A stretch of 64,000 nt of DNA, from assembly GCA_951406725.2 (NCBI GenBank), contig OX597815.1:78926001-78990000 (forward strand). The letters run 5' to 3'. Shown here piece after piece: positions 361 to 64,000 of this stretch. Position 1 is the stretch's first letter. Each line of letters starts with the position of its first letter. Both the position numbers and the translations under genes were made by a program. The notes under the pieces are model-generated. The model ran no database searches and was not told the origin of the DNA. It saw only the letters and a program-made list of their open reading frames with translations. The DNA comes from Octopus vulgaris. Lineage: Eukaryota.

Positions 361-364
<4 letters not shown>

Positions 365-1340: not shown

Positions 1341-1368
1341 TTAATATTTTATTTTATATTATCAACAG

Positions 1369-4865: not shown

Positions 4866-5240
4866 TTCATCATCATCATTTCATGTCCATTGTTCAATGC
4901 TGACATGGATCAGACAGTATTTGTTGAGATAGATTTTCTTCAGACCGATGCATTTCCTGTCAACATCCCTCACCTGTTCTCAAGATATTTCACCATGGCG
5001 AGTCATGTTTTCACAACATTGGAAGCAAAGAGGACTACTTGCATGATGGTAACATTCATTTACAACAATCATGTAATGTCAAGGCAGGGAGACAATAACA
5101 CACACACAACCAAATCCACCCACAAAGCTTTGTGGGCTATAGTAGAAGATATTTGCCCAAGGTGCTGTTTCAGTAAGTCTGAACTTAAAACCATGTGGTT
5201 GGGAAGCAATCTTCTTACTACACAGCCACATTGCACCCAC
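4866..5240 (-). mobile_element. tRNA-derived SINE with RTE-like tail
   Basis: reverse complement of the 955-1340 architecture (head 5110-5240, tail ending in (GAT)n). Confidence 0.72.
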
Positions 5241-5620
5241 AGCCATATTTTTGTTTTAGAATATATCATTTTTAATGTTATATTGGTGTGTTAGTCCACA
5301 GATCTTTGTATCATGGAATAATTTGGTTGAAATATCATCTAAAGGATTTAAAGACTTCACCTGAATAAATATACCTGTAGTATTAAGAAAGAATTTTTTG
5401 AGGTGTAAAAATCTTATCTAAACCAGTTCATTTCCTTTATAATATAGACATCAGCCTTTGATATCATTTAGGTATTTGTTAAAGTATCAGAAAAGATCTT
5501 ACTAAGTCAAGGAATCTAACTTTAAGTTGAAGTTTGACGTTCTCTTGTAAATAAGACACAAAAATTATTTCTTATTTCTGATTTTCATCTTGATTTATTT
5601 CAATTTTAAAATATTTTTAG

Positions 5621-5740
5621 GCCATTGTTTCCACAGAACCAATCAGCACAGGGAATGTGAATTTCAAGCAGACTATGGTTAAGTTGCTTGATTTAGCCAC
5701 AGATGAAAGCACTACTGACTCTAAATCAACAGAGAGCAAG
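5621..5740 (+). CDS. THADA: THADA coding exon
   Basis: tag|GCC...AAG|gtttat; AIVSTEP...FKQTMVKLLDLA, 120 nt, phase 0-0. Confidence 0.92.
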
Positions 5741-6404
5741 GTTTATCTATTTTTTAGATATTTATTTACCTTTTAATTCTTTGTCTCATTTAATTTTTTG
5801 GAATAATCTTTTGTATTAAAGATTTCAGAGATGTAAAATATATTTATTTGGATGAAATATAAACCAATTTAAATTGCTTGAAACCTTTAGAAAAATAATA
5901 TAAAACTTGGTTTACGAATGGGAGCTGATACACTTCCACCACCACCACCACCACCACCACCATCGTCGTCATCATCATTATCATCATGTTAACCTCCAGA
6001 TTTCCATGCTTGCATAATAAGTCTGGTGGGATTTGTTGATGTAGATTTTCTACAAACAGATGCCTTTCTTGTCACCAATCCTTCACTGTTTCCAATCAAA
6101 GTAATATCACCCATGGCCTGACATGTTTTCAACAGAAGACTGGAATTCAACAACATCACTTGTATGATGGCGATGCCCATTTACAACCATTACATAATGT
6201 CATGGCAAAGGTACACACAAACGAACAAATATTTGTGTATTCTAAAAAAGCAAGTGTCTCAACCATTCCTGCATTATATACAAATCATAAGAAATAAACA
6301 TTTGCAATTTGCTTGTCAGTTTAGTGTGGTACTTAATTCATCAGTGAAGGAATATACCTCAGTATGGAGCTGTCTATGTAGATGATATAAAATTTATAAA
6401 CATA

Positions 6405-7195
6405 TTGCCAAAGGTTTCGGTCGCTAGTCATTGCATCTGTGAGGCTCAAAGTTCAAAGATTATGCTTCACCACATCCCATGTCTTCCTGGGTCTACCTCT
6501 ACCACAGGTTCCCTCCACAGTTAGAGATCGGCATTATTTACACAACTGTCCTCGTCCATACGCATCAAATGACCATACCAGCACAGTTGTTTCTCTTGCG
6601 CACTACATCTGATTTCTCTTATGCCTAACTTTTCTCTCAAGATGCTTACACTATTGAACATGCACAGTTACATTGCACATCCAGCAAAGCATACTGGCCT
6701 CGTTTCTCTCAAGCCTATGCATGTCCTCAGATGTTATAGCTCATGTTTCACTGCCATGCAGCATAGCTGTTCACACACAGGCTTCAAACAATCTGCCTTT
6801 CACTCTGAGAAAGAGGCCCTTTGTTGCCTGCAGGGGTAAGAGCTCTCTGAACTTTTCCCAGCCCAATGTTATTCTCACAGCTACACTCTCGGAATATCCA
6901 CCTCCACTACTAACCTGGTCACCTAGATACCGGAAGCTATCTACCACCTCTAGCTTGCCCACCTAGCAGTTGATGGAGTCTTTCTACACATTTTCAGCGT
7001 TTATTGTCTGTGCACCTTCCACATACAAAAATTAGTTTCTCTGTTAACCTTCCTTTGATGTTGCTGCACCTTTTGTGTGTTCAAAGCTTACACTGGTTGC
7101 ATCTTATGGAGCTTCTACCTACACTTTTTCTACAGATTAAGCAGGGCCTTCTACCTGAAGAGATTTGTGATTTGTCTGCCTTCCTACTTACTATG
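6405..7195 (-). mobile_element. decayed RTE LINE ORF fragment
   Basis: KLEVVDSFRYLGDQVSSGGG...LLPLQATKGL matches the 34494 ORF; includes remnants of the Cys/His finger; frameshifted. Confidence 0.9.
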
Positions 7196-7919
7196 CTCAG
7201 AGTTGTAAAATGACTCCCTCTAATTCACATAAACCTCTCGATTTACAGCAAACATAAAATTATAAACAAAAAGAAAACACTACATTAAGATATCATCATC
7301 ATTTAACGTTCGCTTTCCATACTGGCATGGATCAAATGGCTTGACATGGAGCTGGCTAGCAGGGAGCTGTCCCGACTCCAATTGTCTGTTGTGGTATGGT
7401 TTCTACAGTTGGATGCCCTTCCTGAGTGTGATTGCTGCTTTTTATGTGTCACTGGCAAGGGTGCATTTACACAGCACTAGCACAAGTACTTTTTATGTGG
7501 CACCAGCATCTGAAATGACAAGCCTGTAGGCATGGAAGACAGGGATTTTACTTGACATGTCTTATCAGGTACTGTGAACTGCCAGGTATTACAGATTAAA
7601 TATTATAAATATATATGGGAATCATAACAGAAAAAAAGAAATTGGTAGAGACGGAAGGAAGGGACATGAAATACAGCTTGGCATAAAGTGAATTTGGTAT
7701 TGGCCAAATATGCTGAAGGAAGCAAGTTTTTTTTAACCAACACAGCGGATGATGCCAAGTTTGAAACCATCACAGTTTCTTTAGTAAATCTGTTCTCATG
7801 TTTAATTCATGATGATTGTTAGGAACCTCAGAAAAATTGCATTTTGTAAATGAAATTAGACAACGTGTGTGTGTGTGCATGCGCATACATATATATATAT
7901 GTATGTCTGTGTATGTTTA

Positions 7920-8273
7920 TCTCTATATATAAATGGCAAAATGTCTGCGTGCGTGTCCTTTATACAAATCCACAATTTTTCAGTTAGAGGGCTCGCACTT
8001 TCTATGGTCATTCAAAACCGTCCAAGGGTGTTCGTGCACATCTTTAGCTTTCCCCAGTCACCCCGCAAAGCCATTAAAAAATCAATAGAATTGACTTTTT
8101 TGTGAATTTTCTATCCAAAACCCAATCAAAATGCCCGAAACTTGATATGCTAATTGAAAGCTGTATGTGATTGGTCGGAGATTTGGACAGTACTCGCGTG
8201 TATGTGCGCACGCATGCAGCTGTATATGCCTGCACTAGCATTATGACCCGATGTTGCCGGGTCATAGTGCTAG
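7920..8273 (+). mobile_element. non-autonomous Helitron
   Basis: A|TC start, 3' GC hairpin ATGACCCG..CGGGTCAT, CTAG|T end, no TSD. Confidence 0.82.
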
Positions 8274-8369
8274 TATATAATAAAAAAATGATTAACTACT
8301 GTTTGATTTTGTGTTTCATCTATTTGTTGATGCTTTGAAGTTCTTTAATTTTCACTATTTCTACTTTAG

Positions 8370-8492
8370 GTGCATGCCCTCAATATTCTCCGCTCTTTGT
8401 ACCGAGATACTCGCCTTGGAGAAAGTGTTGCGCCATATGTTGCTGATGGTCTCAAGGCAGCTATATTAGGATTTTCATCACATCTCTGGGCT
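8370..8492 (+). CDS. THADA: THADA coding exon
   Basis: tag|GTG...GCT|gtaagt; VHALNILRSLYRDTRLGESVAPYVADGLKAAILGFSSHLWA, highly conserved THADA block. Confidence 0.97.
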
Positions 8493-9184
8493 GTAAGTGA
8501 AGGAAGCATTTTATATTATTTTTACTGCTGTAACAACAAACATAAATTTTATAACATCTACATAGACAGTTCATATAACACTTTTGTGTTGCAATGTTCT
8601 GGAGTCTGTAATTCTTTAAGGAGCCAGTAATTTTGTCTTGAAATGTATGCCACTGTCATCTCTACTTAAAAGGAACGCATGTTTTACATCATCATTGTTT
8701 CAATGTCTACTTTTCCATGCTTGCGTGGTTAGATGCAGTTCATTGAAGCTAATTTTCTACCACAAGATGCCCTTCTTGTCACCAACACTCACCTGTTTCC
8801 ATGCAAGGTAGTATTTCCCCATGGCCTGACATGTTGTCACAGAATATTGGAAATGATTTATACTACTTGTATAACAACAGCAATCATTTACAACTGTGAT
8901 GTCAGGACAAGGAGACATAGACACATACACATTCACACTCACATGTTCATATAATAGACATACATATGTGTGTGTGTGTATATATATATTTATATATATC
9001 ATCATTTAATGTCCTCTTTCCATGCTGGCATAGTTTGGAGTGTTTGACAGGAGCTGGCTTGGCAGAAGTCTGCACCAGGCTTCAGTGTCTATTTCGGCAT
9101 AGTTTTTTACGGCTGGATGCCCTTCTTAACACCAACCACCCCACAGAGTGAACTGAGTGCTTTTTATGTAGTACCAGTGTATAC

Positions 9185-9427
9185 ATCATCATCATCGTTT
9201 AGTGTCCGCTTTCCATGCTAGCATGGTTTGGACGGTTCAACTGGGGTCTGGGAAGCCAGAAGGCTGCACCAGGCCCAGTCTGATCTGGCAATGTTTCTAC
9301 GGTTGGATGCCCTTCCTAACGCCAACCACTCCGTGAGTGTAGTGGGTGCTTTTTACGTGCCACCGGCACAGGTGCCAGACGAGGCTGGCAAACGGCCACG
9401 ATCGGATGGTGCTTTTTACGTGCCACA
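9185..9427 (-). mobile_element. young RTE 3'-UTR copy
   Basis: close match to 37640-37886; further copies near 1-85, 7292-7520, 8998-9175, 14640-14830, 17560-17900, 17990-18210, 24108-24232, 28275-28440, 46017-46170. Confidence 0.85.
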
Positions 9428-9749
9428 TAAATATATATACATATACGAGGGCCTCTTTCAGTTTCCTCCTATCAAGTCCACTCACAAGATCTTGGTTCGC
9501 TTGAAGTTATAGGATAGAAGAAAACATTTGCCCAAGGTGTCACACAATAGGACCAAACCTGGAACTATGTGGTTGGGAAGAAAACTTCTTAACTGTGCAG
9601 CTACATCAGCTTCTCACTCAGCCATAACTACATCTCTAGATTTTAAATTACCAAATGCATTGAATTTACATTGCATTCTTTAATTTTCCTCACTAATTTT
9701 CATTTTTCTTTTCTTTTTTTCTTTTTTTTTTTTTTTTTTTTTTTTTCAG

Positions 9750-9847
9750 ATAACAAATTCTGCCACACTTTTACTGAGTTCCCTCATGACTAGAATTTTT
9801 GGTGTTAATCGTACGAAGCTTGATAAAAATCTACCACGTAAAAATTG
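9750..9847 (+). CDS. THADA: THADA coding exon
   Basis: long poly-T tract, cag|ATA...TG|gtgagt; ITNSATLLLSSLMTRIFGV. Confidence 0.95.
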
Positions 9848-10296
9848 GTGAGTAAACTAGAAAGTGGAAACTATATTTATTAAAAAATAATTGTCCAGGT
9901 AGAGGTTCCCTCATTGGTTCTTATATGTGGTAGTATTGCTTACATACTGTATTAAGTTCTTGATCTGTATATTAAATAGAAAAAACAGATAATTATTACA
10001 TCATCATTATAAAAGCAACCTGTCATTAATAGGTAATCACCAACAACTTGAGTAAATACAACAGACTTCAGCAGCTACTATCACCATTAGGATGTTGGTT
10101 GTCAGTCACTGTCACCTTAAGACTCTCCTCTAAATTCTCCCTGCATTCATTAATTATTTTGTTTGTCTCTTTTTTTGTCATACAGTCTGTTGACTCTAAT
10201 AAATCTTACAGTATGGGTTTTTACCAATGTAGGATTGCCTACTTTTATTTTTATTTTAATCTCTAAATTCCAAGAATTGTTCTTTTATCTTTTCAG

Positions 10297-10383
10297 TCAA
10301 ACTGGACGCACATTCTTCACTCATTATCCAAGTCTGTATCAATTTCTGTTGGAACAAATTGATAAAGCAAGCCCTCAGCTTCA
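10297..10383 (+). CDS. THADA: THADA coding exon
   Basis: cag|T...CA|gtaagt; QTGRTFFTHYPSLYQFLLEQI. Confidence 0.94.
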
Positions 10384-10596
10384 GTAAGTCTCATATCTCT
10401 ATCATTTTATTAGTTTTGGCAGTTTAATATACTTTGATTCTCTTTTTAAATCCTTGTTGAATAATATTAAAATATATTACCATTAGAAAATATTCTAGAT
10501 TGTTGGGACATATTTGTTATTGAATACCTTCTTGTAGGAAAGAATCATTACATTATGGAGATTCTCTAATGTATATATTTTTTTTTCCTATTTCAG

Positions 10597-10731
10597 AGAA
10601 GAAAAGAGTTCTGTATCAATAAATCCTACACTATACCCAGTTCTTCTTGTTCTTGGACGTCTTTATCCTTCAACTTTAGATGGAATACACATGGGACTAA
10701 ATTTAAATGCTTTCATTCCATATATAATCCG
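10597..10731 (+). CDS. THADA: THADA coding exon
   Basis: cag|A...CG|gtatgt; NPTLYPVLLVLGRLYPSTLDG...FIPYII. Confidence 0.94.
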
Positions 10732-11132
10732 GTATGTATTACCTATATGCTTGCACACACACACACACCAGGTATTATATGCCTTCCCTGTCATAATTCC
10801 AAAAATGGAATTGTTGTGATACATTTTTTTTGTGTGTCTTGGAATAACAGTAGCACCCTATCAATAGAATTCATTTCAGGAATCGATGGAAGATTTATAT
10901 CCAGCACTGAAAACATTTATTTTTACAAATTAATTAGAGGAGAAGGATCAGTGTCTAAAATATAGCTAAGATGTGTATAATATAAAGGTTTTAGAATATG
11001 TCTCATATGTGTACTTTATGCTAAACTTTATACTGTATATACTACAGTAATACTTTATGCAATATACCCCATGTATGTAACTGTAATAAATGTTATGCCA
11101 TGTATGACTAATTGACTGATTATATATTTCAG

Positions 11133-11301
11133 GTGTTCTGCCAGTCCTATAATGAAAACCAGAGAGATGGCTGCTAGAGCCTTAAAACCTTTGGTATCAA
11201 AAGATCAGTTGGCACTAACTATAAATAAACTTCTCTCACATATTCCCCCTGAAAAAACCAGTGAAATTTCTCAGAATTTCTTACATGGACTCTTGCTTCA
11301 A
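11133..11301 (+). CDS. THADA: THADA coding exon
   Basis: cag|G...CAA|gtaatt; CSASPIMKTREMAARALKPLV...QNFLHGLLLQ. Confidence 0.94.
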
Positions 11302-12029
11302 GTAATTTTACGATTTTTATTTTGTTTGTTGTTAGTTTGGAATTGTTGTTGTTTCTTTTCTCCCTGCCTTCAGATCAACCCTGATTAAGTAGTCTTAGGG
11401 CATCTAAACCATTAGCCAAACAGTGAGGCACAACTTACTGATTTTTCTTTTCAGTTAATCATGTCTCCTCTTAGCTGAGGACTGTACTGCACACTTGTAC
11501 ATGCATTCATCATCATCATCATCGTTTAACGTCCGCTTTCCATGCTAGCATGGGTGCAGAGTGACAGTATAGGTATCTTCACAGTCTACTTTCTTACTAC
11601 GCACCCTCACATTCTGGTGATGGCAGCAGTTGATGTTTCTCTGTCCTTATTGTTGGTGGTGTGCATCCTAGCATAGTGTTTGGAGCCAGTCAGGCAAAGA
11701 CATTGATGATGCAGTTGTTTTTGTGTGTGTTTTTTTTATGTTTGTTTGGGCTGAGAAGGGAAGTTAATGTTTTTAGATGATAGAAGTGAGAGTAAAGGAA
11801 GAGAACCAAAGTGAAAGTATGAGAAAGAAAGTAGTAGACAGCTATATGACAGTTGTTGGTGAGGGGATTGAATAGAAACAATTTGACAGTTGACTTGCAA
11901 TGGTTGAAGAGGAACATTAATGACACCAGTTTCACTGGTTTTAGAGAGCATGTGAAGGACATGGGCACTGCTCCTTCTTCCAGATTCTGCAAGTAAAAAA
12001 ATATTCATGAAGTTCAGTCCCTTAAGATT

Positions 12030-13830: not shown

Positions 13831-14040
13831 CTTTCACTGGTGTAGTGTTAGGTATGACAAAAGAGTGCAGTTGGGAAGTGTTGTGGAGTGTAGTGTGGGA
13901 TGATAGTATATATCTGTGTGTGTATGTGTTTGCATATTTGTGTGTGTGGTCTGTATGCCTCTGTATTTGTGTATGTGTGTGTAGCTTTTAATAGTGTCTT
14001 CTGATAATTTCTAATCATTGTTTCTTATTTCTCACTTCAG

Positions 14041-14524
14041 GCCCTCAATTTGTTTGATCATCCGACAAGTTGCTCTTGACATCACCATGTCATTTGTCTC
14101 AGACGATTTCTCCTGTCAAAAATCTTCTTCATCCCAGTCACTCCTTGTTTCTGCTCTCATGGACCTTTGTGATATAGAATATGAAAAACTAAGCTTTCTT
14201 TCCCCTCTCTGGTTTCCTGGTCAGGCTCAATATTTAGTGACAGTATGTAAAATCCAACTCTGGAAACTGAAACAGACTCAAAGACAATGTGAAGACTTTC
14301 CAGCTTTGCGCCAAATTCTCATAGATTACTTGAATTCTTCTCTCTATGAAATTCGCTTGGAAGTTCTTCATTGGATAAAGACGGAATGTGCATTCAGGAA
14401 TCAATTGGAAAATAACAGTGAATCATTTCAGCATTTCCTGGACTTTGTCTGCCAGTCTACCGAGCTTGTAGACTCCTTGTTGGCTTTTATTTATTCAGAA
14501 GATCACCCACAGTGTCTGGCAGAA
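14041..14524 (+). CDS. THADA: THADA coding exon
   Basis: cag|G...GAA|gtaagt; 484-nt open exon inside ORF 14018..14617 (PSICLIIRQ...LYEIRLEVL...HPQCLAE). Confidence 0.9.
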
Positions 14525-15874
14525 GTAAGTTCAGTTATTCAATATCTCAAGATTTCAATTGTATTAGTTTTTCTTCACAAACGTAGAAAATATTGTGAAA
14601 AAAAAATGAAATATTAAAAATGTGTATCTCACTGTTTATTATCATCATCAAACCTCTGTTTTCCATGCTGGCAGAGTCTGGTTAGCTGTATAACTGCATC
14701 AGGCCCTAATGCCAGCTTTGGTATAGTTTCTATGGTCGAATGCCCTTTCTAACATTCACCACTTTACAGTATATACTAGGTGCTTTTTTCATGACACCAA
14801 CACTAGTGAGGTTGCTCAGTAACTTGCAGGGCAGGAAAGACAAGAAAATGAAAAGTAAAAAAAACTCCCGCAACTGAGTGGGAGGTGGTTTTATGCCAAA
14901 TGTTGAAAGCTAAAGTATGATAGAGGCACAAGCACTCATGTTTTATTATAGTAGAGATACATGGCTTTGCCACCCTGTGCAAAGTGGGTCCGAGTAACTG
15001 GAAGGACAATAAAGATGGTAACAAAGTACCAGAGCATACACTCAAGGTGCAAGGAGAATATAGACTGTGGAGTATAAGGGAGAATATAGACTGTGGATCA
15101 AGAGGAAAGGAAAGGGTGGATAATTGTGGCTGGTTTTTCTACAACTGGATGCCCTGCCTGTCACCAGCCCTTGCTTGCTTCTAAGCAAGGTATTGCTTCA
15201 CCATAGCCAGACATGCTTTTGTATAAGATAGTAAATGGACACTATTTGTATGATGGTGACACTCATTTACAACTATTGAGTAATGTCAAGACAAGGGGAG
15301 ACACACATGCATGAACACACACACACGCACACACACACACACTTGATGAGTTTCTTAGCTCTCATAAAACTCTGATTAATGAGGTGTAAATTGGTCTGAG
15401 CTATCATATTTACTGTGCCTGAAAAGTTATTAATAAGTATAAATATTTGTAAATACACAGCTTTACAACTAACCCATTCACTCATGAAAAGACTGACTTT
15501 TGATGATTGTGATGGTGGTGGTGGGAATGTCAACAGTGCTGCTGCATACTCAATCAAGAAATAGGAATTTTAATTTGGGTTATCTTTATTTATTTATTTA
15601 TTTTGTACTTAGTGATAAAGCTTTAAAATTCATATCTTCATATCTAAATTTTAGATAAAATTAAATTTTGAAAAATATAAAAAATTTTTTCATTCACTCA
15701 GATTCAAAATTCAGTTTCTGTTGAATTTTGTTGGGAATTCAAAATTATATTAAAAAATTTTTCTTTGCAATTCAACTCCAAACTTTGATTTGAAATCTGA
15801 ACAATGTTTCTATTTTATCAAATCAAAATTTCAAATCAAAAATATTAAAAAATTTCCTTTTATATAATCTTAAG

Positions 15875-17392: not shown

Positions 17393-18677
17393 GGAGATAG
17401 ATTTTAAGTCATGTCTCTGGCCTCATTTATAATCTAGTTTATAAATTTTGAAAGGTGATAGTTCTGACACATTCATCAGTTTAACACCATAACCTGAGCC
17501 CTTGTTACCTTTAGAGAAGTTCATTCTATTGCAACTAGTTGGATTAGTGATCGTTGTCAGCGTTGCCGCACTGGCACGTGAACAAAACATTTGAGCGAGG
17601 TCGTTACCAGTGCTGCTGGACTGACTCTTGTACAGGTGGCTTGTAAAAAACACCATTTACGAGCATGGCCGTTGCCAGTACCACCAGACTGGCCCTCGTA
17701 CCGGTGGCACTTTAAAAGCATCCGCTACACTCTTGGAGTGGTTGGCATTAGGAAGGGCATCCAGTGTAGAAACTCTGCCAGATCAGATTGGAGCCTGGTG
17801 CAGCCATCTGGTTTGCCAGTCCCTAGTCAAATCATCCAACCCATGCTAGCATGGAAAGCAGATGTTAAACGATAATGATGATGATGATGATGATGTTGAT
17901 GAAGTTAAGGGTATTTGTCCCTTAAGCAGCTGCTACTAGCTTAGTTCCACTGTTTAGCAGACTGTATTGAATTTGCTCACTACTTGATAGTCATCGTCAT
18001 TGTCATCATTTAATGTCCAAATCTCTGCTGTTGTAAGTTAGACAGTTTGACAGGGTCTTATGAGTTGGATGATTGTATCATACTCCAGTGTCTGCTTTGG
18101 CATGGGTTTCTAAGGCTTCTAGGCCTTCCTAATGCCAACCACTTTATAAAGTGCATTAGGTACCTTTGTTGTGGTGCCAGCACCAAGTGAAGAATGTCTC
18201 ATAACTTGCAAAGGTAAGGGCCCAAAGTAGCTCCTGTAATTGAGGGAGAATAGAAGTGACAGAGTGGATGAAGATTCTAGGCTGAGGAATGAAGGATGGT
18301 AAGTTGAGAAGAACAGGTTTATAGTTGCAATAGGGTGGTAATAGGGAGAGTAATAGAGTACCAGAGTAGTTACTAATTGGAAAGACGGTACAAGGGAAAG
18401 GGTTAGGCTAGGGTGGAGATTTGACTGCTATTGCTAACAACTTGAACAACCATGAAGAGGCCTCTCTTGTTGGCTTGTGATTGGTAGTAGTAATGATGAT
18501 GGTGATAGTGATGGTAGTAGTAGTAGGAGGAGGAGATGGATCAGCAAGTCTGTGATACAAGAAAACTCAAATATGTGTGTTACCAAGTATTAAATTTGCT
18601 TGAAATATGTGGAAGAGATAAAATAATTTTGATTGTTTGTTAATTGTTTATTCTGATAGTCTTTAATGCTATTCTAG

Positions 18678-25179: not shown

Positions 25180-25362
25180 TGGCACGTAAAAAGCACCCAC
25201 TACACTCATGGAGTGGTTGGCGTTAGGAAGGGCATCCAGTTGTAGAAACATTGCCAGATAAGACCGGAGCCTGGTGCAGCCTTCTGGCTTCCCAGATCCC
25301 CAGTCGAACCGTCCAACCCATGCTAGCATGGAGAACGAACGTTAAACGATGATGATGATGAT
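25180..25362 (+). mobile_element. RTE 3'-end copy with (GAT)n tail
   Basis: close match to 37694-37886. Confidence 0.88.
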
Positions 25363-30699: not shown

Positions 30700-30730
<31 letters not shown>

Positions 30731-30731
<1 letters not shown>

Positions 30732-33518
30732 TCTTCTTCTTTTTCCTCCTCTTCTTCTTCATATGCTAAAACTTGAAAACCGCCATTACTATTACTATTA
30801 CGATTCTGCAATTTAAATTCCCAGTTCAACTACTTTCTTCTTCAATTTCAACTCCCGCTCGATGACCGCAGCAAGTTCTTAAAAATTTATCTTACTATAT
30901 TTTTTTATTCGTTGTTACTACGTTTATTCATACACTGTTACGAAAATTTAACCTTTTTTAGGCTACTTTCAAGCCTTCGCCATAACTTGATTTATCTTCC
31001 TATCTCTCTCTCTACAATATTTAACCGCAGGCTGCCTCAAGCCGTAATCCCATCTTTTCCCATCTTTCAGCCATTGGCGGTCTTCTTATTTTTCCTCCTC
31101 TTCTTCTTCATATGCTAAAACTTGAAAACCGCCATTACTATTACTATTACGATTCTGCAATTTAAATTCCCAGTTCAACTACTTTCTTCTTCAATTTCAA
31201 CTCCCGCTCGATGACCGCAGCAAGTTCTTAAAAATTTATCTTACTATATTTTTTTATTCGTTGTTACTACGTTTATTCATACACTGTTACGAAAATTTAA
31301 CCTTTTTAGGCTACTTTCAAGCCTTCGCCATAACTTGATTTATCTTCCTATCTCTCTCTCTACAATATTTAACCGCAGGCTGCCTCAAGCCGTAATCCCA
31401 TCTTTTCCCATCTTTCAGCCATTGGCGGTCTTCTTCTTTTTCCTCCTCTTCTTCTTCATATGCTAAAACTTGAAAACCGCCATTACTATTACTATTACGA
31501 TTCTGCAATTTAAATTCCCAGTTCAACTACTTTCTTCTTCAATTTCAACTCCCGCTCGATGACCGCAGCAAGTTCTTAAAAATTTATCTTACTATATTTT
31601 TTTATTCGTTGTTACTACGTTTATTCATACACTGTTACGAAAATTTAACCTTTTTTAGGCTACTTTCAAGCCTTCGCCATAACTTGATTTATCTTCCTAT
31701 CTCTCTCTCTACAATATTTAACCGCAGGCTGCCTCAAGCCGTAATCCCATCTTTTCCCATCTTTCAGCCATTGGCGGTCTTCTTCTTTTTCCTCCTCTTC
31801 TTCTTCATATGCTAAAACTTGAAAACCGCCATTACTATTACTATTACGATTCTGCAATTTAAATTCCCAGTTCAACTACTTTCTTCTTCAATTTCAACTC
31901 CCGCTCGATGACCGCAGCAAGTTCTTAAAAATTTATCTTACTATATTTTTTTATTCGTTGTTACTACGTTTATTCATACACTGTTACGAAAATTTAACCT
32001 TTTTTAGGCTACTTTCAAGCCTTCGCCATAACTTGATTTATCTTCCTATCTCTCTCTCTACAATATTTAACCGCAGGCTGCCTCAAGCCGTAATCCCATC
32101 TTTTCCCATCTTTCAGCCATTGGCGGTCTTCTTTTTCCTCCTCTTCTTCTTCATATGCTAAAACTTGAAAACCGCCATTACTATTACTATTACGATTCTG
32201 CAATTTAAATTCCCAGTTCAACTACTTTCTTCTTCAATTTCAACTCCCGCTCGATGACCGCAGCAAGTTCTTAAAAATTTATCTTACTATATTTTTTTAT
32301 TCGTTGTTACTACGTTTATTCATACACTGTTACGAAAATTTAACCTTTTTTAGGCTACTTTCAAGCCTTCGCCATAACTTGATTTATCTTCCTATCTCTC
32401 TCTCTACAATATTTAACCGCAGGCTGCCTCAAGCCGTAATCCCATCTTTTCCCATCTTTCAGCCATTGGCGGTCTTCTTCTTTTTCCTCCTCTTCTTCTT
32501 CATATGCTAAAACTTGAAAACCGCCATTACTATTACTATTACGATTCTGCAATTTAAATTCCCAGTTCAACTACTTTCTTCTTCAATTTCAACTCCCGCT
32601 CGATGACCGCAGCAAGTTCTTAAAAATTTATCTTACTATATTTTTTTATTCGTTGTTACTACGTTTATTCATACACTGTTACGAAAATTTAACCTTTTTT
32701 AGGCTACTTTCAAGCCTTCGCCATAACTTGATTTATCTTCCTATCTCTCTCTCTACAATATTTAACCGCAGGCTGCCTCAAGCCGTAATCCCATCTTTTC
32801 CCATCTTTCAGCCATTGGCGGTCTTCTTCTTTTTCCTCCTCTTCTTCTTCATATGCTAAAACTTGAAAACCGCCATTACTATTACTATTACGATTCTGCA
32901 ATTTAAATTCCCAGTTCAACTACTTTCTTCTTCAATTTCAACTCCCGCTCGATGACCGCAGCAAGTTCTTAAAAATTTATCTTACTATATTTTTTTATTC
33001 GTTGTTACTACGTTTATTCATACACTGTTACGAAAATTTAACCTTTTTTAGGCTACTTTCAAGCCTTCGCCATAACTTGATTTATCTTCCTATCTCTCTC
33101 TCTACAATATTTAACCGCAGGCTGCCTCAAGCCGTAATCCCATCTTTTCCCATCTTTCAGCCATTGGCGGTCTTCTTCTTTTTCCTCCTCTTCTTCTTCA
33201 TATGCTAAAACTTGAAAACCGCCATTACTATTACTATTACGATTCTGCAATTTAAATTCCCAGTTCAACTACTTTCTTCTTCAATTTCAACTCCCGCTCG
33301 ATGACCGCAGCAAGTTCTTAAAAATTTATCTTACTATATTTTTTTTATTCGTTGTTACTACGTTTATTCATACACTGTTACGAAAATTTAACCTTTTTAG
33401 GCTACTTTCAAGCCTTCGCCATAACTTGATTTATCTTCCTATCTCTCTCTCTACAATATTTAACCGCAGGCTGCCTCAAGCCGTAATCCCATCTTTTCCC
33501 ATCTTTCAGCCATTGGCG
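30731..33518 (+). repeat. tandem array of eight near-identical 349-bp monomers
   Basis: unit starts at 30731, 31080, 31428, 31777, 32126, 32472, 32821, 33170; differences are almost only 1-3 nt indels in simple tracts. Confidence 0.98.
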
Positions 33519-33535
33519 GTGCGCCCGCCCCCCCA

Positions 33536-33727
33536 CCCCCACCACCAATACTGTTGAACACTGTTCTCACCCCCACCACCAATACCGTTGAACACTGTTC
33601 TCACCCCCACCACCAATACCGTTGAACACTGTTCTCACCCCCACCACCAATACCGTTGAACACTGTTCTCACCCCCCCCACCACCAATACCGTTGAACAC
33701 TGTTCTCACCCCCCCACCACCAATACC
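33536..33727 (+). repeat. 34-bp minisatellite, 5 units plus a partial unit
   Basis: CCCCCACCACCAATACCGTTGAACACTGTTCTCA repeated directly with no spacers. Confidence 0.95.
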
Positions 33728-33816
33728 AGTATACCCCGTTCTCTCCATCTACACCGGATACACCTTACTCATCTACACTGGGTACGCCCTACTCCCTCCT
33801 CCTCCCCCCACTACCA

Positions 33817-34125
33817 CTTCTCCTCATATGCTTAAGACAAGCTGCTAGCGCCATAGCTCATCAACTGCCCACCGATCTTACGCTTCCTCCTGACACTGCC
33901 TCAATCCGACCATCCCCTTTTAGTACCCTCCCGCCTCGTCAATCCGACCATCCCCTTTTAGTACCCTTCTCCTCATATGCTTAAGACAAGCTGCTAGCGC
34001 CATAGCTCATCAACTGCCCACCGATCTTACGCTTCCTCCTGACACTGCCTCAATCCGACCATCCCCTTTTAGTACCCTCCCGCCTCGTCAATCCGACCAT
34101 CCCCTTTAGTACCCTCCCGCCTCGT
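33817..34125 (+). repeat. ~149-bp tandem duplication with internal ~38-bp repeats
   Basis: CTTCTCCTCATATGCTTAAGACAAGC.. occurs near 33817 and 33966; TCAATCCGACCATCCCCTTT(T)AGTACCCT occurs four times. Confidence 0.92.
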
Positions 34126-34493
34126 AATATCCTACGTTTTTATTTCTTAGGAACCTACACCAACCCTTCCTGCCATCGTTCCTCCTTACCCCAACCTTCC
34201 CCACTGGTTGCTCCCCTATATTACCCGCCTCAACTGGACCTCCCCAACTCAACTCTAGAATATCTGTATTTCTTTCCTCTACCTAATTACGTTACTCAGT
34301 GACGATAACAAATGTCCACTGCTAACACCAGCTCCTGCCCACGGCGTGGTCAGGTTGGAAGAGAGATCAAAAGAAAAATACCACGAAAACTATCACCACC
34401 ACTACAACCCTCCTCTTCTCAGACGCCGAATCCCCCTGTCCCCCCCACATCTCCTTCCCAGTTTTCAGAGTTGGCACTATCAATGTTGGTACA

Positions 34494-37400
34494 TTGACAG
34501 GCAAGTCTAGTGAGATTGTAGAGATGCTAGAGAGAAGACAGGTTGATGTATGCTGCATACAAGAGGTAAGATGGAGAGATGCTTCGGCTAGAGTCCTCAC
34601 GGGCAAGGCACTTAGATACAAACTCTACTGGCAAGGTAACGCGGAAGGTGTAGGGGGTGTAGGCATTCTCCTTGCGGAGGAATGGGTGGATAAGGTCATA
34701 GAGGTTGTCAGGGTTTGTGATAGAGTGCTTAAGCTCAGGTTGGTCCTACAGAGTGGCACAGCTATGATTATCTCAGCCTATGCCCCACAAGCGGGACTAC
34801 CAAATGATCAGAAGGACAACTTTTATGATACCCTTCTGCAGGCTACTTCAAAGACTAGTAACAAGGACCTCATCTTTGTAGGTGGAGATTTTAACGGGCA
34901 TGTTGGGCGGGAATCGGGTATCTTCACTGGGGTACATGGTGGATATGGTATTGGCACCAGAAATGATGAGGGAACTAGACTACTGGAATTCTGTGATGCA
35001 TGTAACCTTTCAATCTGCAACACTAACTTCAAGAAGCCAGTCTGCCACCTTATAACTTATCAGTCAGGAGACTCCGCTAGCCAAATAGACTTCATCCTCA
35101 CCAGACAACGGGATGCAGGGTTGCTCTTGAATACAAAGACCCTCCCGGGTGAAGAATGTATCCCTCAGCATAGACTAATCATCAGTGACTTTAAGCTTGA
35201 GGCCAGAAGGACTCCAAGAAACAAACCAATCCAGAAAAGAAGGATTTGGAGGCTAAAGAACCCTTCGCATGGTCAGAAATTTAGGGACATACTCATCAAG
35301 AAATTTGATGAGAGGGAAGAGGAGCTTCAGACGTCAGACATAGAAGGTAGCTGGGGATTCCTACGGGACAGCTTGTTGAGTGCCACAGACCAAGTTTGTG
35401 GATGGTGCAAAGTCCCTTCCAGACCTAGAATTACGTGGTGGTGGAATAGTGCAGTAGATAAAGCCATCTGTGAAAAGAGACGGGCCTGGAAAGCCTGGAA
35501 GGATGGGGGCAGCAGGGAACTGTACCAGATAGCCAAAAGGGAGGCTGGGCGGCAGGTATACATTGCCAAAGATGTAGCAGAAAAGAAGAAGTTTGCCAAT
35601 GTCCAGCGTCGCGAGGATCAAAGAGCTGAAGTATTTCGGATTGCCAGACAGTGTGTCAGAGAAAATAGCGATGTTATAGGAGAGAAATGTGTCCGCATGG
35701 ATGATGGGGCACTTGCTTTTACTACTAGTGAAAAGAAAGAGGCTTGGAGAAGCCATTATGAAAGACTGCTAAATGAGGAGAATGAATGGGAGGAGGAGAG
35801 CCTGCCAAATGTTGACCCAGTAGAGGGACCAGCTACCCGAATAGACAGCTCCCTTGTAGATAAGGCAATTAAGGATATGAAACCAGGCAAAGCCCCTGGC
35901 CTATCAGGAATCACTGCTGAGATGCTTAAAACAGCTGGCTATGTGGGCCATGCCATAGTCACCCGCATTGTAAACCAGGTAGTTCACAATGGAGCCATAC
36001 CCAATGACTGGTGCAGCAGTACCATAGTCAACTGCTACAAGGGTAAGGGAGATGCTCTAGATAGAAATAACTACAGAGGTATCAAACTGTTGGACCAGGT
36101 GATGAAGGTCTCAGAGAAGGTCATAACCAATCTCATTAGGGAGAGAATTTGTTTAGATGAAATGCAGTTCGGTTTTGTACCAGGTAGAAGCACCACTGAT
36201 GCTATATTCCTGGTCCGACAACTGCAGGAGAAGTACCTAGCTAAAGATAAACCCCTCTACATAGCTTTTGTAGACTTGGAGAAAGCCTTTGACAGGGTTC
36301 CCCGTTCCCTTATCTGGTGGTCGATGCGGAAACTGGAGATTGAAGAATGGCTAATAAGGGCTGTACAGGCTCTATACAGAGAGGCTGTTAGCAAGGTTAG
36401 GATTGGCAACGAATATAGTGAAGAATTCCGAGTAGAAGTAGGTGTGCACCAGGGCTCAGCCCTCAGTCCCCTTTTGTTCATCATAGTCCTTCAAGCAATA
36501 ACAGAGGAATTCAAAACGGGATGCCCCTGGGAGCTCCTCTATGCCGATGACCTAGCTCTCATAGCAGAATCACTACCGGAACTAGAAGAGAAATTTCGGG
36601 TATGGAAGCAAGGGTTGGAATCAAAGGGCCTTAGAATAAATGTAGCAAAGACCAAAGTATTAGTAAGCAGCAAGAGGTACTCAACACACATCCCCTCGGG
36701 TAGGTGGCCCTGCTCAACCTGTAGGAAAGGTACAGGTAGAAACTCCATAAGATGCACCCAATGTAAGTTATGGACACATAAGAGGTGCAGCAACATTAAA
36801 GGGAAATTAACAGATAAGATAGCTTTCATGTGCGGCAGATGCACAGGGACAATAGACACAACAGACACTCAGAAAACAGATTCCATCACACTCCAGGGAG
36901 AGAAACTAGAAGTAGTTGATAGTTTCCGCTACCTGGGAGACCAAGTTAGTAGCGGAGGTGGATGCACAGAGAGTATCACCACTAGAATACGAATAGCCTG
37001 GGCAAAGTTCAGAAAGCTCCTACCCCTACTGGCAACAAAAGGCCTCTCCCTCAGAGCAAAAGGTAGATTATATGATGCATGTGTGCGAACTGCCATGCTT
37101 CACGGTAATGAAACATGGGCTGTGACTGCAGAAGACATGCGTAGACTTGAAAGAAATGAAGCTAGCATGATCCGCTGGATGTGTAGTGTCAGTGTGCACG
37201 CAAAACAGAGTGTAAGTATCCTGAGAGAAATGCTGGATATAAGAAGCATCAGATGTGGTGTGCAAGAGCGACGCTTGCGATGGTATGGTCATGTGCTGCG
37301 GATGGATGAAGAGAGATGTGTGAAGAAGTGCCACTCCCAAACAGTTGAAGGTATCAGGGGGAGAGGTAGACCCAGGAAGACATGGGATGAGGTGGTCAAG

Positions 37401-37634
37401 CATGACCTCAGAGCATTGGGCCTCACTGAGGCAATGGCGAAGGACCGAGATCTCTGGAGATATGCTGTGACTACAAAGACCCGGGCTGCTTTCTGCAGCA
37501 ATTCCACATACCCCCTACCCATTCTAAGTACCCCCCTACCCATTCTAAGTACCCCGGATCCCCAAAGTACCCTGGATCCCCAAAATACCCCGATCCCCAA
37601 AGTACCCCGGACCTCGTTGCCCCCGTGCCGCTGA
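34494..37634 (+). CDS. RTE LINE polyprotein: APE endonuclease, reverse transcriptase, PHD-type zinc finger
   Basis: CIQE, GDFNGH, IDFIL and QHRL endonuclease motifs; NYRGIKLL, FVDLEKAFDRV, GVHQGS and YADD (36540-36551) RT motifs; RGRGRPRKTW RTE C-terminus; frame open upstream to TAA at 34323 with no in-frame ATG before 34494. Confidence 0.95.
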   Translation: MTGKSSEIVEMLERRQVDVCCIQEVRWRDASARVLTGKALRYKLYWQGNAEGVGGVGILLAEEWVDKVIEVVRVCDRVLKLRLVLQSGTAMIISAYAPQAGLPNDQKDNFYDTLLQATSKTSNKDLIFVGGDFNGHVGRESGIFTGVHGGYGIGTRNDEGTRLLEFCDACNLSICNTNFKKPVCHLITYQSGDSASQIDFILTRQRDAGLLLNTKTLPGEECIPQHRLIISDFKLEARRTPRNKPIQKRRIWRLKNPSHGQKFRDILIKKFDEREEELQTSDIEGSWGFLRDSLLSATDQVCGWCKVPSRPRITWWWNSAVDKAICEKRRAWKAWKDGGSRELYQIAKREAGRQVYIAKDVAEKKKFANVQRREDQRAEVFRIARQCVRENSDVIGEKCVRMDDGALAFTTSEKKEAWRSHYERLLNEENEWEEESLPNVDPVEGPATRIDSSLVDKAIKDMKPGKAPGLSGITAEMLKTAGYVGHAIVTRIVNQVVHNGAIPNDWCSSTIVNCYKGKGDALDRNNYRGIKLLDQVMKVSEKVITNLIRERICLDEMQFGFVPGRSTTDAIFLVRQLQEKYLAKDKPLYIAFVDLEKAFDRVPRSLIWWSMRKLEIEEWLIRAVQALYREAVSKVRIGNEYSEEFRVEVGVHQGSALSPLLFIIVLQAITEEFKTGCPWELLYADDLALIAESLPELEEKFRVWKQGLESKGLRINVAKTKVLVSSKRYSTHIPSGRWPCSTCRKGTGRNSIRCTQCKLWTHKRCSNIKGKLTDKIAFMCGRCTGTIDTTDTQKTDSITLQGEKLEVVDSFRYLGDQVSSGGGCTESITTRIRIAWAKFRKLLPLLATKGLSLRAKGRLYDACVRTAMLHGNETWAVTAEDMRRLERNEASMIRWMCSVSVHAKQSVSILREMLDIRSIRCGVQERRLRWYGHVLRMDEERCVKKCHSQTVEGIRGRGRPRKTWDEVVKHDLRALGLTEAMAKDRDLWRYAVTTKTRAAFCSNSTYPLPILSTPLPILSTPDPQSTLDPQNTPIPKVPRTSLPPCR

Positions 37635-37892
37635 CACGTTAAAATGCTCGAATCCGATCGTGACGATGCCGGACCCTCCGGCCCCTGTGCAGGTGGCACG
37701 TAAAAAGCACCCAATCCACTCACGGAGTGGTTGGCGTTAGGAAGGGCATCCAGCCGTAGAAACTCTGCCAGATTCAGACTGGAGCCTGGAGCGGCCCCTG
37801 GCTTCCCAGACCCGGTCAAACCGTCCAACCCGTGCTAGCGCGGAAAGCGGACGTTAAACGATGATGATGATGATGATGATGATGATATATAT

Positions 37893-38903
37893 ACTGTTTT
37901 GGGACCACTACTGTTCATAATGGCCCTCAGCCACGCAGAGAGCCACGATCACAAGTTATGCAGATGATACAAAAGTTTCACAGGTAATAAAGAACCTGCA
38001 ATGTGAGATGGACAAAATATATAAGTGGGCTGAAAAGAATAGCATGCAGTTCAATGCTGAAAAGTTTCAAGCTTTATGCTATCAGCATGCAAAACTAAAT
38101 GCAATACCCAATAAATACATTGGACCTGGAGGGATTGCAATCCCAGAGGCACAATCAGTGCGAGACCTGGGTATTTACATGAGTAATGATGCAACCTTTC
38201 ATGTGCATGTTGCTAAATTGGCAATGAAATGTAGGCGGCTGACCGGATGGATTCTTAGAGCCTTTAGAACAAGAGACCAGGAAACCATCATGATCCTCTT
38301 GCTCTCAGCTATGGTCACCATTCAGTGTCAAATTAATCACAGAACTTGAGGCGATCCAACGAAGCTACACGAAGAAGATAGCCTCTGTGCGGCACATAAG
38401 CTATTGGGAAAGACTCAAGAGATTAAGACTCTATTCCTTAGAGTGTAGGCGAGAAAGATATGCCATAGTATACATCTGGAAGATCCTGGGAGGACTTGTT
38501 CCAAACTTTGGATTCGAGAGTTACACAAATACTAGAACTGGGCGCCACTGCATAGTGCCAAGGACTCCAAATTTGCCTTCAAGATGTAGGACAAGATACT
38601 GTGATAGCCTGGGCTTCAGAGGTACACACATCTTCAATATCCTCCCGAAGGACCTGAGAGACCTGCACGGGGTGGATGCAGATGTCTTTAAAATAAAACT
38701 GGATCTCTTCCTGTCAAGTGTCCTTGATGAACCAACTTCACAGCAGGAGGTGCAGATGAGGGCAGCTGCATCAAACTCTCTCATGCACTAAATGTCAATT
38801 GCTAAAAAGCATTCGTGAAGTAAAATCATGTAGCAACACCGAATGGCAGTGCCCCAGCATGGCCACAACTCGTGAGCTGAAACTAGATAAAATTAAAAAA
38901 TAA
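37893..38903 (+). mobile_element. 5'-truncated, decayed CR1/L2-group LINE
   Basis: VLGPLLF, YADDTK, MQFNAEKF, LYSLECRRERY; frameshifts; same family as 57001-58632 and 59275-62348. Confidence 0.9.
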
Positions 38904-39467: not shown

Positions 39468-40118
39468 ATATATATATACATGTATATATATATATATGTC
39501 TATGTATAACAGGAAAGTTTACGAAAATAAACAAAAAACAAAGGCAGGTGGAGTACAAACAAATAAATGTATTAGTATAGCGCCCAGGAATAGAAATAGA
39601 AAAAGTCTTTTACGTTTCGAGCCTACGCTCTTCGACAGAAAGATACACAGAAAAAACAAGGAGAGAAAAAAATGCGTGTAGGAGCTAACGATCTATCATG
39701 GTGTCCTGACTTTGGATGTCTATATATATACATACATATATATACATATGTATATATATGTATACATATATATATTTTTTTTTTTCATTATTTTCTAGGT
39801 TTCCAATGTTTTTTGTATTGTACTTTAGTTAAGGAATTCCTTTCATTTCCCTATAAATATATATACATAAAAACCATTAGAAAACTCAACTCATTAGACA
39901 GAGTTCAATAAATGTCATCAAATAAACGGAACAGGTTTTGATGCTAATTATTTATTTAATTTAACAAGACAGTTATTTCTGTCAATTGTAGACCTGAAAT
40001 ATGGTCTTTTATGACAGAAACAGCTGTCTGGTTAAATGAAATAAATAATTAGCATCAAAACCTGTTCCAGTTATTTGATGATGTTTATTGGACACCATCT
40101 AATAAATTGATTCTTCTA
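38975..40118. repeat. 333-bp inverted repeat whose arms are themselves palindromes
   Basis: 38975-39307 is the near-perfect reverse complement of 39786-40118; 38975-39215 folds on itself. Confidence 0.93.
39508..39720 (-). mobile_element. ~210-bp TA-embedded element with hammerhead-like fold (copy 1)
   Basis: homologous to 41070-41276; minus strand TCTTT-CTGTCGA-A-GAGC-GTAG-GCTC-GAAA-CGTA-AAAGA at 39606-39643. Confidence 0.7.
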
Positions 40119-40306
40119 TATATATGTGTGTGTGTCTGTGTGTTTATATGTGTGTATATATTTGTGTGTGTATATATGTATATGTGTATTTATGTGTGTG
40201 TGTATATGTGTGTATATATATGTGTGTGTATATATATGTGTGTGTGTATATATATATGTGTGTGTGTATGTGTGTATATATGTATATTTATGTGTGTGTA
40301 TATATA

Positions 40307-40347
<41 letters not shown>

Positions 40348-40619
40348 GTATGTATGTACATGTATGTATGTATGTATATGTATGTATATGTATATGTATA
40401 TATATGTATGTATATGTATATGTATATATATGTATGTATATGTATATATATGTATGTATATGTATGTATATATGTATATGTATATGTATGTATATGTATG
40501 TATATGTATATATATGTATGTATATGTATATATATATGTGTATATATATATTTATATTTGTATGTATGTATGTATGTATATATATATGTATATATGTATG
40601 TATATGTATATATGTATGT

Positions 40620-40674
<55 letters not shown>

Positions 40675-41069
40675 TGTATGTATATATATATATGTATATA
40701 TGTATGTATGTATATATATATATGTATATATGTATGTATATATATATATGTATATATGTATATATGTATGTATATATATATATGTATATATGTATATATG
40801 TATGTATATATATATATGTATATATGTATATATATATGTATGTATATATATATGTATATATATATGTATATATGTATATATATATGTATATATATATGTA
40901 TATATGTATATATATATGTATATATATATGTATATATATATGTATGTATATATATATATGTGTATATATATGTGTATATATATATGTATATATATATATG
41001 TGTATATATATATATATGTGTATATATATATATATGTGTGTGTATATATATATGTATATATATATATAT
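40119..41069. repeat. (TA)/(TG)/(TATG) compound microsatellite
   Basis: direct inspection. Confidence 0.97.
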
Positions 41070-41373
<304 letters not shown>

Positions 41374-42033: not shown

Positions 42034-42588
42034 GATACAGAAGATAGGCTTTTTGACCGTGGTGAAATGAACACATATCGCGATGAAATGAACTTTGTAC
42101 AAACTGTGGCCTCTTATCTAGATTGTGTCATCAATGACTCATTCACATCTAATTGCCAATTACTTCCTGATGAGACTCCACTGAAAAATACAAGCTGCTA
42201 CAGCCAACCATTACCAAATCTACCATGCATAAAACCAGAAGACATTAAAGAATCTTCTGTTGAGCGTATCAAAGAAGAATTCAGTTTGACCTCACGGTTA
42301 CTCATTAGCCGCCTTTCACAGATGAAAAGCCAAACAACAATGGGGTCTCTCTTCGACATAATTTCTCACCAGACAGATTGTTTAGATACCTACAAACTGT
42401 TACTATCTTTGTTTTATCTTCAGAAAATGTTACTACCCAAAGATTACCAGCAATTCTTTCAAGAATGTGATACCATTTCCAAGCAGATTAATATCATCTT
42501 TGGTTCATCTGTAAATATAAGAGATACACTGCAATGTAAGTGCTACACATTAGCCAGTCAAATATCCCAATATTACACAAAGACATGA
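42034..42588 (+). CDS. THADA: THADA terminal coding exon
   Basis: cag|GAT; DTEDRLFDRGEMNTYRDE resembles the C-terminal THADA LF(E/D)xxExN motif; in frame with ORF 42067..42588, TGA stop. Confidence 0.86.
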   Translation, partial: DTEDRLFDRGEMNTYRDEMNFVQTVASYLDCVINDSFTSNCQLLPDETPLKNTSCYSQPLPNLPCIKPEDIKESSVERIKEEFSLTSRLLISRLSQMKSQTTMGSLFDIISHQTDCLDTYKLLLSLFYLQKMLLPKDYQQFFQECDTISKQINIIFGSSVNIRDTLQCKCYTLASQISQYYTKT

Positions 42589-50205: not shown

Positions 50206-57000
<6,795 letters not shown>

Positions 57001-62312: not shown

Positions 62313-62348
62313 TGGTGAGACACCCGTGTCAATAAAGGCTGACGGCCT

Positions 62349-64000
<1,652 letters not shown>

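What the first reader, a model, noticed from the sequence alone, without database searches (positions are those of the whole stretch)
30730..34311. RTE LINE preceded by exactly eight 349-bp monomers and further nested repeats: a candidate monomer-array promoter
Seen: the array starts abruptly at the (TA)n flank and contains an integer number of near-identical units. It runs without a gap into a C-rich leader built of 34-bp, ~149-bp and ~38-bp repeats, then into a near-intact RTE ORF. The motif CTTC(T)..TCATATGCT near the monomer start recurs at the start of both ~149-bp units. Each monomer opens with a pyrimidine tract and carries three GCCAT motifs. Known: mouse L1 uses tandem ~200-bp monomers as additive internal promoters with a YY1 (CGCCAT-core) site; the RTE elements I know have short, non-arrayed 5' UTRs. 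Inference: the array is this element's 5' promoter, and whole-unit copy number may arise by RT template jumping, rolling-circle copying of a ~349-nt RNA, or unequal exchange.
Basis: partly seen in the sequence, partly recalled or inferred. Interest (0 to 1): 0.8.

Follow-up and report, generated by a model that had tools for sequence, protein, structure and literature searches.

The report
RTE retrotransposon with tandem 5' monomers
A young, full-length RTE-type jumping gene begins with eight head-to-tail copies of a 349-base unit that probably works as a stackable built-in promoter, a design known from mouse LINE-1 but not expected for this class of element; promoter activity is not shown.

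Summary
Eight units (30730-33517; one substitution and three small indels among them) start at a (TA)15 flank. They run into a nested-repeat leader, an unbroken 1102-codon endonuclease-RT-PHD frame and a (GAT)9 tail. The likely ATG sits one frame off.

In 4 of 4 sequencing runs laid, the unit is a high-copy, polymorphic family with end-to-start joints, so the tandem layout is not an assembly artefact. The count of eight is unverified. Three variant contigs cross from unit into leader, but too narrowly to count as bridges, so family-wide linkage to RTE is likely, not shown.

The units are CpG-rich (o/e 1.25 against 0.24 background), carry CCAT motifs and show no ribozyme. They share collinear motifs with the 149-bp leader unit at only borderline significance. 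No exact YY1 site is present. The copy probably lies sense in a THADA intron, so RNA over it proves no promoter.

Best reading (0.55): the element's own monomeric 5' promoter, convergent with mouse L1. Rivals: an unrelated satellite-like family (0.2), or a passive 5' repeat with host read-through (0.2). New variant of a known kind.

The parts
30700..30729 (.). (AT)15 left flank; its last 6-8 bases are the candidate target-site duplication
30730..33517 (+). eight head-to-tail 349-bp units (346-349 bp); 67% pyrimidine, GC 0.36, CpG o/e 1.25; each opens with a pyrimidine tract and ends in a CCATCTT, CCATCTT, GCCATT cluster
33518..33533 (+). GGT (same as the unit's first three bases) and a G/C-rich linker into the leader
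   Evidence: variant contigs cross it
33534..33727 (+). 34-bp repeat, 5.6 copies
33746..33794 (+). 24-bp repeat, 2 copies
33812..34125 (+). 149-bp repeat, 2 copies, with nested 37-38-bp units; shares two 9-mers in the same order with the 349-bp unit
34126..34311 (+). non-repeated stretch before the ATG (tether-like by position only)
34312..34497 (+). ATG-opened 61-codon frame, one frame off the main ORF; probably the original N-terminus, since relatives start about 40-85 residues before the endonuclease motif
34326..37634 (+). unbroken 1102-codon frame: AP-like endonuclease, reverse transcriptase (YADD), PHD finger; its last 40-50 codons run through 21-bp and 18-bp repeats
37635..37859 (+). 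3' UTR shared (76-87% identity) with several short repeats in the window; holds the AGGAAGGGCATCC motif at 37739
37860..37886 (+). (GAT)9 tail
37887..37892 (.). ATATAT, right copy of the candidate target-site duplication

Best explanation
The 349-bp array is the 5' end of a young, full-length RTE-type LINE family and works as a stackable internal promoter. Shown: the layout; the insertion into a TA run; tandem copies of the unit at many loci in other samples. Inferred: the CCAT-rich 3' end of one unit drives RNA polymerase II to start at the G and pyrimidine tract that open the next unit, so new copies begin in register with a unit boundary. Units lost upstream of the start are regained by whole-unit duplication. 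The route may be unequal exchange, or the reverse transcriptase re-annealing its cDNA end at the matching GGT one unit downstream. The 149- and 38-bp leader units may be older, shorter modules of the same kind.
For: The array lies between the left TA flank and the leader with no gap, and the 5' end is within 3 bases of register (about 2% for a random break, post hoc). End-to-start joints occur in 4 of 4 runs laid, from four studies and two species labels; one has depth 833 in X2, where another listed contig has depth 3.85. Three of the 32 listed pieces run from unit into leader with 5-8 differences from the window, so they come from other loci or alleles. CpG o/e is 1.25 in the unit and 0.87 in the leader, against 0.35 in the ORF and 0.24 in the flank; 3 of 87 background pieces have as many CpG. 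GCCAT x3 is reached by 2 of 2000 shuffles. One X4 contig has a unit end holding GCCATCTTT, which contains the mouse Tf YY1 motif printed in PMC9022269. The shorter units seen as joints or loose ends retain CCATC-bearing sequence from the unit's 3' part. No ribozyme was found in the 5' region, whereas other RTEs use a 5' ribozyme and host promoters (PMC8501958, PMC6765202).
Against: There are no start-site or reporter data. The three unit-to-leader pieces have only 19-25 letters on the short side and fail the tool's 31-letter rule for a bridge. No unit start joined to a TA flank appears among the 24 loose ends shown of 133, so the in-register 5' end rests on this one copy. The window's unit has no exact GCCATNTT, no TATA box and no Inr match. 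The unit-to-149-mer likeness is borderline: 110 of 1000 shuffles reach the plain local score, 15-253 of 2000 reach the chained score depending on gap costs, and 2 of 264 window pieces reach it. The copy probably lies sense in a host intron, so it needs no promoter of its own. The leader-to-ORF link was not tested in other samples.
Confidence: 0.55

Rival explanations
1. The 349-bp unit is a satellite-like repeat family with its own dynamics. Most copies are free arrays, and this LINE (or a minority of its copies) is fused to one by template switching or insertion.
For: The unit is very abundant and variable: 2898, 408, 1541 and 140 contigs were laid, most 90-99% alike, one X15 contig has depth 21,934, and many indel and sub-unit variants occur. 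After removing the unit's share, depth just past the junction is small in X1 and nil in X2 (summed contig depth is not a copy number). Satellites arising from retrotransposon repeats are reported in plants (PMC7004042, title in search listing only).
Against: The array starts sharply at the insertion's left flank and in register with the junction. Variant contigs continue into the same leader. The same rough depth residual is sizeable in X15 and X4.
Confidence: 0.2
2. The array belongs to the element but is a passive, unstable 5' UTR repeat. The element is transcribed by read-through from host genes, and any promoter lies in the C-rich leader or nowhere.
For: This element makes tandem repeats everywhere outside its core: 34, 24, 149, 38, 21 and 18 bp. 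The copy probably sits sense in a THADA intron. RTEs are described as lacking promoters and being transcribed from introns (PMC6765202 passage). No exact YY1 motif.
Against: Read-through elements need a ribozyme to free their 5' end, and none was found. The 5' end is in register, and CpG is retained.
Confidence: 0.2
3. The array is an assembly artefact, or the units come from rolling-circle copying of a self-cleaving 349-nt RNA.
For: The units are nearly identical, and most differences are indels in low-complexity runs. No read spanning the array was examined.
Against: End-to-start joints occur in three runs besides the best holder X1, and a junction like that of the shortened unit 5 recurs in X2 and X4. 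Rfam gives no ribozyme, fold z-scores are 0.11 and -0.36, and no hammerhead core or HDV descriptor match lies in the unit.
Confidence: 0.05

Closest known systems
Mouse L1 (A, Tf, Gf) monomer 5' UTRs (PMC9022269, PMC5381506; passages and part of the Discussion read)
   Same: Tandem monomers at the 5' end, a non-repeated stretch before the ORF, CpG enrichment and CCAT-core motifs. Mouse copies with 5.7 and 7.5 monomers are reported.
   Different: Different LINE clade, single ORF, AT-rich 349-bp unit (GC 0.36), no exact YY1 site in this copy. The 5' end is in register with the array's 3' junction, whereas mouse ends cluster inside a monomer. The ORF-proximal unit is not diverged here; mouse M1 is 77-97% identical to M2. 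Promoter activity is shown in mouse and untested here.
Dictyostelium TRE5-A A-module (PMC3159450, passages)
   Same: A discrete 5' module (200 bp) of a non-LTR element, with promoter activity in TRE5-A.
   Different: Two-ORF, tRNA-gene-targeting element. That A-modules occur in tandem is recalled, not seen in the passages read.
RTE-clade elements with 5' ribozymes: Schistosoma Perere-3 (twister variant) and HDV-like RTEs (PMC8501958, PMC6765202; passages)
   Same: Single endonuclease-RT ORF, short-repeat tail, target-site duplication.
   Different: They have short 5' regions (about 112-147 nt to the AUG in Perere-3), a self-cleaving ribozyme and host promoters. This element has a 3.58-kb repeat-built 5' region and no detected ribozyme.
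RTE-2_OV of Octopus vulgaris (PMC9115989; passages, section 8, parts of two supplements)
   Same: Single ORF of similar length (1109 aa); RTE clade; microsatellite at the 3' end. One listed insertion of the related O. bimaculoides RTE has an (AT)n target duplication.
   Different: Its 5' UTR is about 600 nt, 'tandem' does not occur in the main text, and 0 of 3 of its primers tested match the window at up to 3 mismatches, so this is another family.

Membership tests
RTE-clade non-LTR retrotransposon | single ORF with AP-like endonuclease and RT, no separate ORF1 | tested here: met
   only a 61-codon frame lies upstream
RTE-clade non-LTR retrotransposon | short 3' UTR ending in a short tandem repeat | tested here: met
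   225-bp UTR and (GAT)9
RTE-clade non-LTR retrotransposon | target-site duplication | tested here: inconclusive
   ATATAT on both sides, but within a TA run
RTE-clade non-LTR retrotransposon | RT groups with named RTE elements in a tree | not testable with these tools
   The 120 listed homologues (31-61% identity) carry no clade names; the best solved relatives are L1 ORF2 and R2. The RTE label rests on architecture and recalled motifs.
RTE-clade non-LTR retrotransposon | 5' self-cleaving ribozyme (present in several, not all, RTEs) | tested here: not met
   Rfam, folding, simple motif and descriptor scans; a divergent ribozyme could be missed
mouse-L1-type monomer promoter | tandem monomers at the element's 5' end | tested here: met
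   for this copy
mouse-L1-type monomer promoter | monomers tied to the family's 5' end genome-wide, with variable number | tested here: inconclusive
   tandem joints in 4 of 4 runs; unit-to-leader pieces too short to count as bridges; no genome held
mouse-L1-type monomer promoter | YY1 motif GCCATCTT in the monomer | tested here: inconclusive
   absent in the window's unit; CCATNTT twice; exact motif in one X4 variant contig
mouse-L1-type monomer promoter | CpG enrichment | tested here: met
   o/e 1.25 against 0.24, although GC is only 0.36, below a classical island
mouse-L1-type monomer promoter | promoter activity and transcription starts within monomers | not testable with these tools
   only contigs were available
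retrozyme or ribozyme satellite (rolling circle) | hammerhead or other ribozyme in each unit | tested here: not met
RTE-2_OV | sequence identity to the published element | tested here: not met
   0 of 3 primers tested match; the full sequence was not seen

The most novel reading that the evidence does not exclude
This RTE lineage has swapped the ribozyme and host read-through strategy for a self-regenerating monomer promoter. Transcripts start at a unit's first G, and the reverse transcriptase rebuilds whole units by jumping from the RNA 5' end back to the matching GGT one unit downstream, which gives integer arrays. A motif that lies 5' of the ORF in a relative now sits in the 3' UTR. Hundreds of such intronic arrays would be portable promoters, and a testable model for how monomer promoters avoid erosion.
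Probability: 0.2. Interest if true: 0.75.

Novelty: new variant of a known kind. Interest (0 to 1): 0.45.

Why it matters
[quoted passage not shown] A monomer promoter on an RTE would be an independent origin of the same solution. How such arrays are rebuilt after each round of copying is, to my knowledge, unsettled. A young family with in-register ends would allow unequal exchange and RT template jumping to be told apart by counting 5' ends and variant order across copies. It would also mean that short-read consensus sequences of such families miss their 5' ends.

Tried and rejected
Whole-genome search: no genome is held.

Ribozyme or structured RNA in the unit: Rfam gave 4 weak snoRNA matches below their thresholds. 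Folds are no better than shuffles. No hammerhead core or HDV descriptor match was found in the unit; a loose twister-like pattern did match, which I judged too unspecific.

Splice-acceptor array (exon trapping): 0-2 acceptor-like sites per unit, no more than shuffles; rejected.

Identity with RTE-2_OV: rejected.

Unit in metagenome contigs: 0 matches for one 28-base pattern. Related loci: 79 were returned, mostly fragments. Only 2 reach the ORF's 5' end (L001 with 457 bp upstream, L034 with 605 bp). L001 has a 48-bp x2.5 repeat there, and none of the 79 resembles the window's 5' region, so this is uninformative.

The 61-codon frame shows no likeness to the one relative it was compared with. 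The putative last THADA exon found no homologue among 375 candidates, and a candidate exon at 14015-14614 gave no significant match.

Copy number from summed contig depth was tried and is inconsistent between runs; it is not used as a count.

The consensus fold of the 3' UTR motif has 2 of 18 pairs with compensatory change: no claim. Four look-ups of earlier scan notes returned nothing.

Full report
OBSERVATION. The window shows eight head-to-tail units from 30730, directly after (AT)15. Five of the eight are identical; the others differ by one substitution and small indels. Unit 8 ends at 33517 and is followed by GGT, the letters that open each unit. Then come a G/C linker, 34-bp x5.6, 24-bp x2, 149-bp x2 with nested 38-bp units, and 186 non-repeated bases. 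The frame 34326-37634 is open for 1102 codons and holds endonuclease, RT and PHD domains. The ATG at 34312 is one frame off, and relatives begin about 40-85 residues before the endonuclease motif. This copy therefore probably carries one frameshift or a sequencing error near its start. A 225-bp 3' UTR and (GAT)9 end the element at 37886, followed by ATATAT, which matches the left flank. The whole unit is a 7.16-kb insertion into a TA run.

HOST AND CONTEXT. No call names the organism. From recall of the TA-rich landscape and the 3' tail I take it for an octopus; this is a lead only. Seven tblastn matches (E 1e-15 to 0.13) to a mammalian THADA lie on the + strand at 1351-11304. A further weak match (pairwise E 0.013) starts at a clean splice acceptor at 42035 and runs to a stop at 42588. 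A database search with that frame found nothing. The element therefore probably lies sense in a late THADA intron, so RNA covering it would not show a promoter.

IS THE ARRAY REAL AND FAMILY-WIDE? No genome was held. Of 24 runs listed, 19 hold half or more of the sampled words of 33169-37500. I laid 4 of the 24 on 402 bases only: unit 8 plus 53 bases of leader. All four are contigs. X1, the best holder, may be the source sample; X2, X15 and X4 come from three other studies, and X15 carries a second species label. 2898, 408, 1541 and 140 contigs were laid, most 90-99% alike, and single contigs reach depth 21,934 (X15) while others in that run have depth 10-50. End-to-start joints appear in all four runs: 33497 to 33174 in X1, 33520 to 33179 in X15, and 33520 to 33181 in X2 and X4. 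So tandem units exist at many loci. Shorter units also appear (33514 to 33362, 33496 to 33375, unit end joined before 33417), as does a deletion before 33231.

Linkage to the leader is weaker. Three of 32 listed pieces (of 5025) cross from unit into leader with 5-8 differences from the window. They have only 19-25 letters on the short side, below the tool's 31-letter rule. My rough split of the junction bin gave a large residual in X15 and X4, a small one in X1 and none in X2; summed depth is no copy number, so this decides nothing. None of the 24 loose ends shown (of 133) joins a unit start to a TA flank. The link from leader to ORF in other samples was not examined. One X4 loose end at 33502 looks like a template-switch cDNA adaptor (recalled), which suggests X4 is an RNA library. 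Its strand cannot be told, and intronic RNA would explain it.

PROMOTER-LIKE FEATURES. CpG o/e is 1.25 in the unit, 0.87 in the leader, 0.35 in the ORF and 0.24 in the first 30 kb; 3 of 87 background pieces have 11 or more CpG. GCCAT occurs three times (2 of 2000 shuffles) and CCATNTT twice, the latter 18-29 bases before the next unit's start. There is no exact GCCATNTT, TATA box or Inr match, and one loose TCT-like match at unit position 8 (motifs recalled). One X4 variant carries GCCATCTTT at the unit end. The unit and the 149-mer share two 9-mers in the same order. Significance is borderline: 342 of 5000 shuffles share as many, 15-253 of 2000 reach the chained score under three gap settings, and 2 of 264 window pieces do. 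Common ancestry is a hint, not a result. No ribozyme or stable fold was found, and acceptor-like sites are no more frequent than in shuffles.

MECHANISM. The best reading (0.55) is a stackable internal promoter: the CCAT-rich end of one unit starts transcription at the G and pyrimidine tract of the next, and lost units are regained by whole-unit duplication. All functional steps are inferred. The in-register 5' end has about a 2% chance under random breakage (post hoc, one copy). The GGT shared by the 5' end and the array-leader junction is the microhomology an RT jump-back would leave, but a ninth unit cut after three bases looks the same. Rivals are a satellite-like family fused to this LINE (0.2), a passive 5' repeat with host read-through (0.2), and artefact or rolling circle (0.05).

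COMPARISON. Mouse L1 monomers are promoters. Their effect was additive between M1 and tether, synergistic for M2 and non-linear for M3, and 5' ends cluster at nts 70-110 of Tf monomers near GCCATCTT (PMC9022269; passages and Discussion part 1). Tandem 5' motifs occur in several mammalian L1s (PMC5381506, passages). TRE5-A has a 200-bp promoter module (PMC3159450, passages). RTEs are described as lacking promoters and using 5' ribozymes (PMC6765202 and PMC8501958, passages). RTE 5' UTRs hold a conserved domain that recurs in SINEs (PMC5786205, parts 1-3 of 5; its figures were not visible, so I could not match the domain's letters). The published octopus RTE-2_OV has a 5' UTR of about 600 nt (PMC9115989; passages, section 8, parts of supplementary files 1 and 2), and 0 of 3 primers tested match here. 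Two of its supplements were too large to read and six were not opened; they may hold related sequence. A 2026 annotation of O. vulgaris lists 182 young RTE insertions covering 907,388 bp, about 5 kb each, and its passages mention no 5' array (PMC13282606, passages and supplement passages). The long mean length fits long 5' ends, but the link to this family is unproven. PMC11203168 (passages) had nothing on RTE UTRs. The listings of searches showed no paper on an RTE with a 5' monomer array. The library lacks most subscription papers, Repbase and Dfam, so this is weak evidence of novelty.

VERDICT. This is a real feature and a likely new variant of a known design: an L1-like monomer 5' end on an RTE-type element. 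It works like a mouse L1 5' UTR by layout only; it is not a member of that family, and promoter function is untested. Interest 0.45.

Noticed in passing
window 37632-37886; 348-881 (-), 9184-9425 (-), 17691-17895 (+), 25180-25362 (+); L001:228: The 3' UTR holds the motif AGGAAGGGCATCC, which lies about 230 bases 5' of the ORF match in relative L001. An older truncated copy at 348-881 also has an ORF end plus this tail, so the 3' position is native to this lineage; it may be a captured bipartite element.
   Followed up: partly
window 1351-11304 and 42035-42588 (+): Exons of a THADA/TRM732 gene; the last one is tentative.
   Followed up: partly
window 6399-7194 (-): 5'-truncated older relative of the same LINE lineage, 74% DNA identity, with in-frame stops.
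   Followed up: partly
window 59362-62558 (-): A second LINE with long open endonuclease (396 codons) and RT (691 codons) frames, 27% identical to the element studied, lying between TA-rich arrays.
   Followed up: no
window 40117-41070, 50206-57000, 62348-64000: Very long TA/TG arrays, up to 6.8 kb, with G almost only on one strand.
   Followed up: no
window 37921-38791 (+): A decayed fragment of another LINE directly right of the element.
   Followed up: no
run X4, place 33502: A loose end resembling a template-switch cDNA adaptor (recalled) at a CCCAT site, probably a strand-invasion or mis-priming product.
   Followed up: no
window 37511-37611: 21-bp and 18-bp tandem repeats extend the ORF about 50 codons beyond where most relatives' matches end.
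   Followed up: no
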